This document shows positions 1,416-1,635 of a DNA stretch of 4,282 nt, piece by piece (positions within the stretch are counted from its first letter, which is position 1; each line of letters starts with the position of its first letter). The stretch is taken from positions 1 through 4,282 of the IMG/VR virus record IMGVR_UViG_2585427751_000006. One strand, written 5' to 3'. Source of the DNA: a virus (taxonomy: Duplodnaviria > Heunggongvirae > Uroviricota > Caudoviricetes). The position numbers and the translations under genes are program-made. Below the pieces are notes generated by a model. It was not told the origin of the DNA, did no database searches, and saw nothing but the letters and a program-made list of their open reading frames with translations.

Positions 1416-1485
1416 ATGTAGTATCCTGTTGATTTGAAACATACTACATATGCGCGCGATCCTACCTTCACTGGATAAAAAGTCA

Positions 1486-1503
1486 ATAAAATGATCATTT
1501 TAT
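1486..1503. promoter_or_regulatory. 18-bp perfect palindrome ATAAAATGATCATTTTAT centred on a GATC (Dam) site; candidate dimeric regulator binding site
   Basis: The sequence 1486-1503 equals its own reverse complement. GATC at 1493-1496 sits at the dyad, with another GATC 8 bp downstream (1504-1507). Confidence 0.4.
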
Positions 1504-1610
1504 GATCGTTTTCACACCCTAAGTCTTCGTTTTCTTTTAGTAAATAATCACCTCCCTGAATCATTGTTGATGACTTTTCAATCTATTTGTTGTATCAATT
1601 AAACACATCG

Positions 1611-1635
1611 AATCGATCGTTTTTGTCGATCGATT
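1611..1635. promoter_or_regulatory. inverted repeat AATCGATCG-N7-CGATCGATT carrying two GATC sites, in the com-mom upstream region; candidate operator overlapping a putative promoter
   Basis: Perfect 9-bp arms at 1611-1619 and 1627-1635, spacer TTTTTGT. GATC at 1615-1618 and 1628-1631. A possible -35 TTGTCG (1623-1628) and -10 TATCAT (1648-1653) are 19 bp apart; this promoter assignment is speculative. Confidence 0.4.

What the first reader, a model, noticed from the sequence alone, without database searches (positions are those of the whole stretch)
1458..1635. GATC cluster and GATC-centred palindromes upstream of com-mom
Five GATC sites (1458, 1493, 1504, 1615, 1628) fall within about 175 bp, against roughly 17 in the whole 4.3-kb window; about 0.7 would be expected by chance in this span. 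Two are embedded in perfect palindromes: ATAAAATGATCATTTTAT (1486-1503) and AATCGATCG-N7-CGATCGATT (1611-1635). In Mu, mom transcription is controlled by Dam methylation of clustered GATC sites upstream of the promoter, which blocks OxyR repression. The arrangement here suggests a comparable methylation-sensitive switch, possibly with a different DNA-binding protein given the dyad symmetry.
Basis: partly seen in the sequence, partly recalled or inferred. Interest (0 to 1): 0.65.

Follow-up and report, generated by a model that had tools for sequence, protein, structure and literature searches.

The report
Dam-sensitive OxyR operator upstream of com-mom
The two GATC sites nearest com-mom form the same methylation-sensitive OxyR binding site that controls the mom gene of phage Mu, carried here by a common E. 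coli Mu-like prophage, while the three farther GATC sites belong to a neighbouring decayed gene and are probably incidental.

Summary
There are five GATC sites at the stated positions, 16 in the window rather than 17, and both palindromes are perfect. Statistically the cluster is modest: about 4% of shuffles reach five sites in 178 bp.

The window is the right end of a transposable Mu-like prophage (end at 2698) inserted in E. coli yaeF. The finding splits into two parts.

**Proximal dyad (1611-1635; GATC 1615 and 1628, 13 bp apart).** It is homologous to GATC sites II and III of the Mu mom operator. It matches the agn43 OxyR operator at 20 of 23 bases and the GATC-N9-GATC half-sites of P22 gtr. 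A second OxyR-like half-site (1585-1599) lies 31 bp upstream, and that offset is the single sharp peak across 15 divergent mom loci. The pair occurs in 65 of 103 Mom loci and in 233 of 5426 complete E. coli genomes.

**Distal sites (1458, 1493, 1504) and the 18-nt palindrome.** They lie in a frameshift-prone ORF remnant. They are absent from relatives with another cassette, have 11-bp spacing and show no OxyR half-site.

The Dam/OxyR reading is therefore supported for the proximal pair only, and no different binding protein is needed. Compared with Mu, there are two GATCs rather than three, the operator lies about 30 bp nearer com, and no activator box is recognisable.

The parts
1585..1599 (.). 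Upstream OxyR-like half-site ATTTGTTGTATCAAT. It carries no GATC. The position of Mu GATC site I (18 bp upstream of 1615) reads AATT; the nearest look-alike is TATC at 1593-1596.
   Evidence: It scores 7/10 against ATAGnTnnnAnCTAT and lies 31 bp upstream of the GATC half-site. Offset -31 is the single sharp peak of mean half-site score across 15 divergent Mom loci, 5.67 against about 2.7 background. It is invariant in all 13 distinct sequences of this prophage class.
1611..1635 (.). Perfect dyad AATCGATCG-N7-CGATCGATT. It contains the OxyR-like half-site ATCGTTTTTGTCGAT (1616-1630) and the two Dam sites at 1615-1618 and 1628-1631.
   Evidence: repeat I8. It is homologous to Mu mom sites II and III, with the same 13-bp spacing. 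It matches the K-12 agn43 operator ATCGATCGTTTATATCGATCGAT at 20 of 23 bases and aligns with the P22 gtr A and C half-sites. Both GATCs are invariant in all 27 loci of the class; L050 alone has one substitution in the right arm, outside the GATC. It is the only ATCG-N7-CGAT in the 40-kb prophage.
1570..1635 (+). Conserved regulatory block shared by both cassette types of this prophage family. Its left edge is where homology between the cassette types resumes.
   Evidence: Alignments. The 121-bp stretch 1570-1690 is present in 233 of 5426 complete E. coli genomes, including O157:H7 strains.
1636..1653 (+). The most variable segment between operator and com. It holds the only -10 candidates: AAAGAT at 1643-1648, which resembles Mu's TAAGAT, and TATCAT at 1648-1653.
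   Evidence: One search shows the variants AGGCGAGAAAGATATCAT, GCATGAGAAAGGCATCAA, GAGTGATAAAGATATCAA and TGATGAAGCAAACATCAA. The sigma-70 scan found no plus-strand promoter in 1565-1680. If TATCAT is the -10, the GATCs fall at about -46 and -33, as for GATC3 and GATC4 of P22 gtr. This is inference only.
1663..1668 (+). Shine-Dalgarno sequence AGGAGG for com.
   Evidence: Read from the sequence. It is invariant in 12 of the 13 distinct sequences of the class; L050 reads AGAAGG.
1679..1879 (+). com, the zinc-ribbon translational activator of mom.
   Evidence: Pfam Zn_ribbon_Com, E 2e-12. RefSeq annotates it as a 'Com family' protein.
1833..2570 (+). mom, the DNA adenine modification enzyme.
   Evidence: Pfam Mom, E 2.4e-77. 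It is 79% identical to Mu Mom.
1458..1507 (.). Distal GATC trio at 1458, 1493 and 1504. Probably not part of the mom switch.
   Evidence: Three sites in 51 bp occur in 14.5% of shuffles. The trio is absent from the AF39-type cassette (11 of 27 loci), and GATC 1458 is lost in L030 and L031. The best OxyR half-site score here is 6/10.
1486..1503 (.). Perfect 18-nt palindrome ATAAAATGATCATTTTAT centred on GATC 1493. Function unknown.
   Evidence: 2.3% of shuffles. It is unique in the 40-kb prophage even with 3 mismatches allowed. On the minus strand it encodes H-K-M-I-I-L of the ORF remnant. It is invariant only among closely related cassette-bearing loci.
1265..1564 (-). Remnant of a phrog_26524 ORF, divergent from com, which contains the distal GATCs.
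   Evidence: phrog_26524, E 1.3e-43, covering positions 1-90 of a 135-position profile. PGAP marks it as a pseudogene missing its C-terminus. In relatives it is frameshifted or varies in length: 56, 82, 99, 135, 137 and 154 aa. There is no Shine-Dalgarno sequence before its ATG (read from the sequence).
1378..1407 (+). Intrinsic terminator ending the upstream cargo transcript. It marks the left limit of the com-mom upstream region.
   Evidence: 13-bp stem followed by a T-run. The stem is kept through compensatory changes in L029, L036 and L050.
2698..2698 (.). Right end of the Mu-like prophage (...CGCCGCGCTATA|). Host yaeF sequence follows.
   Evidence: The flanks diverge immediately after this base in 10 related loci. 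Other insertion sites are in elfC and dcyD.

Best explanation
Region 1585-1630 is the Dam-methylation-sensitive OxyR operator of the com-mom operon of an E. coli Mu-like prophage.

It is bipartite. One half-site (1585-1599) has no GATC. The other (1616-1630) has both recognition elements overlapped by a GATC (1615 and 1628), which produces the perfect dyad at 1611-1635.

Inferred mechanism, by homology with Mu mom, agn43 and P22 gtr: when both GATCs are methylated by host Dam, OxyR cannot bind and the weak promoter just downstream is free to fire. When they are unmethylated, as in a dam- host, under-methylated DNA, or sites sequestered by OxyR, a reduced OxyR tetramer occupies the two half-sites. 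In this lineage those half-sites abut or overlap the -35 region, so com-mom transcription is blocked.

The three distal GATCs and the 18-nt palindrome belong to an adjacent decayed cargo ORF and are not part of this switch.

What is shown: sequence homology, conserved geometry, conservation across lineages, and the genomic context. What is inferred: OxyR binding, methylation sensitivity, the direction of the effect, and the promoter position.
For: 1. **Context.** The region lies directly upstream of com and mom in a complete Mu-like prophage.
2. **Homology to Mu.** The window sequence ATCAATTAAAcacatcgAATCGATCGtttttgtCGATCGATTA aligns with Mu ATCAATTAAATCGATCGgtaatacAGATCGATTA, with the same 13-bp GATC spacing.
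3. **Match to proven OxyR/Dam operators.** It matches agn43 at 20 of 23 bases. The P22 gtr half-sites A and C are also GATC-N9-GATC, and methylation of those sites abolishes OxyR binding.
4. **Full-site consensus scan.** In Mu, the best hit of the 37-mer OxyR consensus in 3.2 kb lands on the GATC-bearing mom upstream region that I take to be the known operator (13/20). The positionally homologous window site 1594-1630 also scores 13/20, and 4 of the window's 5 top hits lie in 1563-1630.
5. **Half-site pair.** Both half-sites score 7/10 and lie 31 bp apart, as in Mu (31), agn43 (32) and gtr (32). Across 15 divergent lineages, offset -31 is the only peak.
6. **Conservation.** GATC-N9-GATC occurs upstream of mom in 65 of 103 loci, with at least 16 different spacers. 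About 15 more loci keep sites I and II and have CATC at site III. CGAT, ATCG, GATC and TCGA are the four most enriched 4-mers, at 5-6 fold, upstream of com in 22 lineages.
7. **A host factor rather than a phage factor.** The dyad is shared by phages whose late activators are only 40% identical, whereas the late-promoter boxes differ.
Against: - No binding, methylation or expression data exist for this locus.
- There are only two GATCs rather than Mu's three.
- The half-sites score 7/10 in an AT-rich stretch that gives several overlapping partial matches.
- The promoter is not located. No sigma-70 match was found, and the -10 candidates lie in the least conserved segment.
- Neither Mu's C box (CCATAAC or TTAT-N6-ATAA) nor this prophage's own late-promoter box (TTYCCGCAAA) is present. 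How the operon is switched on is therefore unknown, and the sign of OxyR's effect rests on analogy.
- The distal palindrome is statistically unusual (2.3% of shuffles) and remains unexplained.
Confidence: 0.75

Rival explanations
1. All five GATC sites act together as one extended epigenetic switch. The distal palindrome or pair would be a second, alternative binding site, giving heritable ON/OFF phase variation of com-mom. This would resemble gtr, with its OxyR(AB) and OxyR(BC) sites, or pap, with two GATC boxes about 100 bp apart.
For: - Five GATCs in 178 bp occur in only 4% of shuffles, and the 18-nt palindrome in 2.3%.
- The distal cassette accompanies the operator in most E. coli copies: 214 genomes against 233.
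- GATCGTTTT is repeated at 1504 and 1615 (repeat D3).
- The terminator at 1378-1407 and the decay of the ORF suggest that 1408-1678 is effectively non-coding upstream DNA.
Against: - The distal sites are absent from 11 of 27 loci of the same prophage class, all of which keep intact com-mom and the operator. GATC 1458 is lost in two more.
- No other Mom lineage has a comparable second cluster at that distance.
- The spacing of 1493 and 1504 is 11 bp, which does not fit ATAG-N7-CTAT, and no half-site scores above 6/10.
- The invariance of the palindrome is seen only among sequences about 93-95% identical, where many other 15-20-mers are invariant too.
- No PapI- or PapB-like gene is annotated in the prophage.
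Confidence: 0.1
2. The dyad is the operator of a phage-encoded or other dedicated dimeric regulator, not OxyR. One candidate is this prophage's C-like late activator, since the dyad occupies roughly the position that the C site holds in Mu.
For: - The 9-bp arms are perfect.
- The dyad centre would lie around -35 to -40 of any promoter placed just before com, where Mu C binds.
- No other activator site is recognisable.
Against: - The same dyad and GATC pair is kept in phages whose C proteins are only 40% identical. It also occurs upstream of unrelated genes, namely agn43, gtr, a GT25 glycosyltransferase, a tail fibre gene and a com-methylase pair. This argues for a shared host factor.
- This prophage's other late promoters share a quite different box, TTYCCGCAAA-N22/23-TAYNCT.
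- The second half-site at -31 fits the geometry of a LysR-type tetramer.
Confidence: 0.08
3. The dyad works at the RNA level, as a hairpin, a minus-strand terminator or a leader structure.
For: The terminator scan lists it as terminator-like on the minus strand, with a 9-bp stem and a 7-nt loop.
Against: - The T-tail is poor (CGATGTGTTT).
- Outside this prophage class, pairing beyond the self-complementary GATCs is not maintained. Mu and L007 have G opposite A next to the GATC, and there are no compensatory changes.
- What is conserved is sequence and spacing, not structure.
- Rfam gives no match.
Confidence: 0.02

Closest known systems
Phage Mu mom promoter upstream region (three GATC sites; Dam methylation blocks OxyR repression; Bolker & Kahmann 1989 and Hattman & Sun 1997, cited in PMC3378877 and PMC4461284)
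   Same: The genes are orthologous: Mom is 79% identical and Com is homologous. The operator sequence is homologous, the GATC II-III pair has the identical 13-bp spacing, the second half-site is 31 bp upstream, and the position is immediately upstream of com.
   Different: There are two GATCs, not three; Mu site I is AATT or TATC here. The pair lies 51 nt from the com ATG instead of 78, so the operator abuts or overlaps the core promoter rather than lying at about -56 to -100. Mu's C-binding site TTATGCCCCAATAA, the T6 run and the TAAGAT -10 are missing. In Mu, gin sits directly upstream; here 3.5 kb of cargo genes lie between.
E. coli agn43 (flu) OxyR/Dam operator
   Same: The core is almost the same: ATCGATCGTTTATATCGATCGAT against ATCGATCGTTTTTGTCGATCGAT, 20 of 23 bases. 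It is a GATC pair 13 bp apart with a second half-site 32 bp upstream.
   Different: agn43 has a third GATC 19 bp upstream, and the operator lies downstream of the transcription start (the isrC/flu 5' end). It drives heritable phase variation of a host surface protein.
P22 gtr O-antigen modification operon (PMC2909390)
   Same: GATC pairs 13 bp apart lie inside OxyR dimer half-sites. The promoter-proximal site OxyR(BC) combines a GATC-free half-site with a two-GATC half-site at -46 and -33, and methylation of only those two sites abolishes OxyR binding. This is the closest match to the window's layout if the -10 is TATCAT.
   Different: gtr has a third half-site (A) with a second 13-bp GATC pair, which gives alternative activating and repressing OxyR positions and hence phase variation. 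The window's distal GATCs do not form such a half-site.

Membership tests
Mu-type mom operator (Dam-sensitive OxyR site upstream of com-mom) | Located immediately upstream of a com-mom operon in a transposable Mu-like phage | tested here: met
   Pfam identifies Com and Mom. The full prophage carries a Mu transposase, a Mor/C family activator and Mu-like structural genes. The random insertion flanks show transposition.
Mu-type mom operator (Dam-sensitive OxyR site upstream of com-mom) | Sequence homology to the GATC-bearing region of Mu Pmom | tested here: met
   Alignments A1 and A2. The shared motifs are ATCAATTAAA, AATCGATCG and GATCGATTA.
Mu-type mom operator (Dam-sensitive OxyR site upstream of com-mom) | Three GATC sites within the OxyR-protected region | tested here: not met
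   Only two are present, at 1615 and 1628. The position of site I reads AATT, or TATC four bases further upstream. Other Mom lineages also carry only two, for example the class with CATC at site III.
Mu-type mom operator (Dam-sensitive OxyR site upstream of com-mom) | Binding site for the late activator C between the operator and the -10, with a weak activator-dependent promoter | tested here: not met
   There is no TTAT-N6-ATAA or CCATAAC box, and no copy of this prophage's own TTYCCGCAAA late box. Only 47 nt remain between the second GATC and the com ATG. The promoter is weak or unrecognisable.
OxyR/Dam epigenetic operators (mom, agn43, gtr) | GATC pair 13 bp apart that overlaps both recognition elements of one ATAG-N7-CTAT-like half-site | tested here: met
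   ATCG-TTTTTGT-CGAT at 1616-1630 scores 7/10. The same arrangement is seen in agn43, in gtr half-sites A and C, and in Mu.
OxyR/Dam epigenetic operators (mom, agn43, gtr) | Second half-site about 31-32 bp away (reduced-OxyR tetramer geometry) | tested here: met
   1585-1599 scores 7/10 at offset -31. That offset is the single peak across 15 lineages. Mu has 31 bp, and agn43 and gtr have 32.
OxyR/Dam epigenetic operators (mom, agn43, gtr) | OxyR binds unmethylated but not Dam-methylated DNA, and expression depends on dam and oxyR | not testable with these tools
   This needs EMSA or footprinting and reporter assays. The methylome papers searched hold no data on this locus.
gtr/pap-type phase-variation switch with two alternative GATC-bearing sites | A second regulator site carrying GATCs at a fixed distance from the promoter-proximal site | tested here: not met
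   The distal GATCs have 11-bp spacing and no half-site scores above 6/10. They are absent from 11 of 27 loci of the same class and from other Mom lineages.

The most novel reading that the evidence does not exclude
In this widespread E. coli Mu-like prophage family, which includes O157:H7 strains, com-mom may have lost the late-activator (C) gate. Its two-GATC OxyR site has moved onto the core promoter, in the same geometry as the repressing OxyR(BC) site of P22 gtr. Mom expression would then be governed mainly by the Dam/OxyR epigenetic state and could be bistable or phase-variable in lysogens. A subpopulation would carry Mom-modified DNA, and the distal GATC palindrome might modulate the switch.
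Probability: 0.1. Interest if true: 0.55.

Novelty: new member of a known kind. Interest (0 to 1): 0.3.

Why it matters
The result shows that Mu's textbook Dam/OxyR control of the toxic anti-restriction gene mom is not peculiar to Mu. The GATC-N9-GATC half-site, with a partner half-site 31 bp away, is kept across enterobacterial Mom loci and is present in about 4% of complete E. coli genomes.

The lineage-specific differences make this prophage family a simple natural test. It has two GATCs, the operator sits on the promoter, and no activator box is recognisable. It can therefore show whether OxyR/Dam alone can gate mom.

The same operator core also precedes other phage cargo genes: a com-methylase pair, a GT25 glycosyltransferase and a tail fibre gene. 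It could therefore help in predicting epigenetically regulated phage genes. None of this changes current understanding.

Tried and rejected
- **Rfam.** An E-value scan of the whole window found nothing in 1300-1700.
- **Sigma-70 and terminator scan.** No plus-strand promoter was found between 1565 and 1680. The dyad was flagged as a weak minus-strand terminator, which I rejected because the tail is poor and there is no covariation.
- **Activator boxes in 1560-1660.** Neither Mu's C box nor the prophage's own late-promoter box is present. The promoter and the activation mechanism remain unresolved.
- **BLAST of the operator block against phage genomes.** Only the Mu-like element nested in two Stx phages matched.
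- **tblastn of the minus-strand ORF against phages.** The same two records matched. Pfam and NCBIfam gave nothing; PHROGs gave phrog_26524 of unknown function.
- **Other copies of the 18-nt palindrome in the prophage.** None were found with up to 3 mismatches. Informal comparison by eye with Fur, FNR and CRP consensus sequences (own knowledge) gave no match.
- **Literature.** Bolker & Kahmann 1989 and Hattman & Sun 1997 are not held. The exact Mu OxyR footprint limits therefore rest on my own knowledge and on secondary citations. The methylome papers say nothing about this locus.
- **A rough substitution count by eye, from the alignment and the ORF translations.** Comparing the window with L032 over the ORF remnant gives about 5-6 non-synonymous against 2-3 synonymous differences. 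The sample is too small for a formal dN/dS, but it is consistent with a dead gene.

Full report
**What the window is.**
ORF and Pfam analysis and matches to annotated E. coli genomes show the right end of a transposable Mu-like prophage. The features, in order, are:
- the end of a DUF6645 gene (1-210);
- a DUF1378 gene (355-537);
- a DUF826 gene (573-827);
- a small hypothetical gene (903-1103);
- a minus-strand ORF remnant (1265-1564);
- com (1679-1879) and mom (1833-2570);
- the phage end at 2698.

The flanks of ten relatives diverge immediately after ...GCGCTATA. Host yaeF and proS follow. Mom is 79% identical to Mu Mom.

**Check of the observation.**
GATC occurs 16 times, with 15.7 expected. 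Five sites lie at 1458, 1493, 1504, 1615 and 1628. Both palindromes are perfect.

Corrected for scanning the window, the cluster is only modestly unusual. At least 5 sites in 178 bp occur in 4.0% of dinucleotide shuffles. The distal trio (3 in 51 bp) occurs in 14.5%. A pair within 17 bp occurs in 43%. The 18-nt palindrome is rarer, at 2.3% of shuffles.

**The proximal dyad is the Mu-type operator.**
In Mu, three GATCs lie 109, 91 and 78 nt upstream of the com ATG. The window's 1615 and 1628 align with Mu sites II and III, with the same 13-bp spacing and the same flanks (ATCAATTAAA...AATCGATCG-N7-nGATCGATTA). Mu itself has the dyad at 8 of 9 arm positions.

The core ATCGATCGTTTTTGTCGATCGAT matches the K-12 agn43 operator ATCGATCGTTTATATCGATCGAT at 20 of 23 bases. 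It also aligns with both GATC-bearing half-sites of P22 gtr. For gtr it has been shown that each 13-bp GATC pair lies in one OxyR dimer half-site, and that Dam methylation abolishes OxyR binding. This holds even for the BC site, which carries only two GATCs, at -46 and -33 (PMC2909390).

The dyad is therefore what an ATAG-N7-CTAT half-site looks like when both arms carry a GATC. It does not indicate a different protein.

**The operator is bipartite.**
A scan with the 37-mer OxyR consensus places Mu's best hit in 3.2 kb on the GATC-bearing mom upstream region that I take to be the known operator (13/20). The positionally equivalent window site 1594-1630 also scores 13/20, and four of the window's five top hits fall in 1563-1630.

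At half-site level, 1616-1630 and 1585-1599 both score 7/10 and lie 31 bp apart. The spacing is 31 bp in Mu and 32 bp in agn43 and gtr. Across 15 divergent Mom lineages, the mean half-site score as a function of distance from the GATC half-site shows one sharp peak at -31: 5.67 against a background of about 2.7. The left edge of the operator coincides with the point where homology between the two cassette types of this prophage family resumes.

**Conservation.**
- Among 103 Mom-encoding loci, 65 have GATC-N9-GATC upstream of mom, with many different spacers.
- About 15 more loci keep sites I and II and have CATC at site III.
- In 22 representative lineages, CGAT, ATCG, GATC and TCGA are the four most enriched tetramers (5-6 fold) at -140 to -30 from com. 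The lineages without GATCs are mostly non-enterobacterial.
- Within this prophage class (27 loci, 13 distinct sequences) both GATCs are invariant, and the dyad is unchanged in 26 of the 27 loci; L050 has one substitution in the right arm.
- The block is present in 233 of 5426 complete E. coli genomes, including O157:H7.
- The late activator of this prophage is only 40% identical to Mu C, and its late promoters carry a different box. The dyad is nevertheless shared, which points to a host factor.

**How this operator differs from Mu's.**
- Only two GATCs are present.
- The pair is 51 nt from the com ATG, against 78 nt in Mu.
- Mu's C site TTATGCCCCAATAA, its T6 run and its TAAGAT -10 are missing.
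- The prophage's own late box, TTYCCGCAAA-N22/23-TAYNCT, is also absent. That box is found before the lysozyme gene, before the protease gene and after the gin-like recombinase gene.
- The sigma-70 scan finds no promoter.
- The 18 nt after the dyad (1636-1653) are the most variable part of the region, so the candidate -10 elements AAAGAT and TATCAT are not conserved.

Related 'short-spacing' lineages (L005, L051-L053) do have a good -10 (TATACT, TATAGT or TAGATT) 11-13 nt after the second GATC. In those, the GATC half-site lies on the -35 region. I infer that in this family OxyR would occlude the promoter directly. The transcription start and the means of activation remain unknown.

**The distal GATCs.**
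Sites 1458, 1493 and 1504 and the palindrome lie in the minus-strand ORF 1265-1564. This ORF matches phrog_26524, a family of unknown function, over positions 1-90 of 135. PGAP marks it as a pseudogene. In relatives it is frameshifted or of varying length. It also contains a plus-strand terminator whose stem is kept by compensatory changes.

The whole cassette is replaced by a different one in 11 of 27 loci, all of which keep the operator and com-mom. GATC 1458 is lost in two further loci. The spacing of 1493 and 1504 is 11 bp, and no OxyR half-site scores above 6/10. The palindrome has no second copy in the prophage.

I therefore treat these sites as incidental to the mom switch. The palindrome remains statistically unusual and unexplained.

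**Verdict.**
The feature is a new member of a known kind, with some variation in architecture. It is not new biology.

Noticed in passing
window 1378-1407 (+): A strong intrinsic terminator (13-bp stem followed by a T-run) lies inside the minus-strand ORF remnant. Its stem is preserved through compensatory substitutions in relatives (L029, L036, L050). It therefore looks like a functional terminator for the upstream cargo genes, and it argues that the overlapping ORF is dead.
   Followed up: partly
window 2698/2699; ORF 2588-3499 (-): The prophage ends at 2698 (...CGCCGCGCTATA). The insertion lies inside the 3' part of host yaeF, so the yaeF reading frame runs from host DNA into the phage end and gains a foreign C-terminus. 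Relatives are inserted elsewhere, in elfC, dcyD and other genes, as expected for transposition.
   Followed up: partly
L162 2314-3315 (IMG/VR contig 2938192669_000005): The exact dyad ATCGATCG-N7-CGATCGAT, with a third GATC nearby, precedes a com homologue. That com is followed by an N6_N4 DNA methyltransferase (Pfam E 2e-33) instead of mom. This is a com-gated methylase under the same putative Dam/OxyR operator.
   Followed up: partly
L129 605-1505, L156, L134 11445-12982, L121 13135-14088: The same dyad, often with a third GATC 18-19 bp away, lies upstream of a GT25 LPS glycosyltransferase, a prophage tail-fibre gene and a DUF4942 gene in other viral contigs. Of 58 IMG/VR contigs with the exact dyad, 34 have no Mom homologue in the DNA held for the locus, and at least two of those (L117, L125) carry the same com upstream sequence. 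This suggests a reusable OxyR/Dam module on phage cargo genes.
   Followed up: partly
L026 11314, 19501, 35468 (prophage of NZ_CM167690.1): Three putative late promoters of this prophage share TTYCCGCAAA-N22/23-TAYNCT. They lie before the lysozyme gene, before the protease (I-like) gene and after the gin-like recombinase gene. This is probably the recognition box of its C-like activator, which is 40% identical to Mu C. The box is absent upstream of com-mom.
   Followed up: partly
window 1066-1272 (-) and 1302-1331 (+), 1459-1486 (-): An unannotated 68-aa minus-strand ORF has a reasonable Shine-Dalgarno sequence and overlaps the 3' end of the 903-1103 gene. Two consensus-level promoter matches flank the terminator. 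One, on the minus strand, has a -10 (TAGGAT) that overlaps GATC 1458, and the 18-nt palindrome sits just upstream of its -35. Nothing beyond the pattern matches supports these.
   Followed up: no
L006, L009 (Mom loci from GTDB genomes): In these loci the GATC-N9-GATC pair lies only 36-114 nt before the mom match, and my search found no com ORF. They may be com-less mom genes under the same operator.
   Followed up: no
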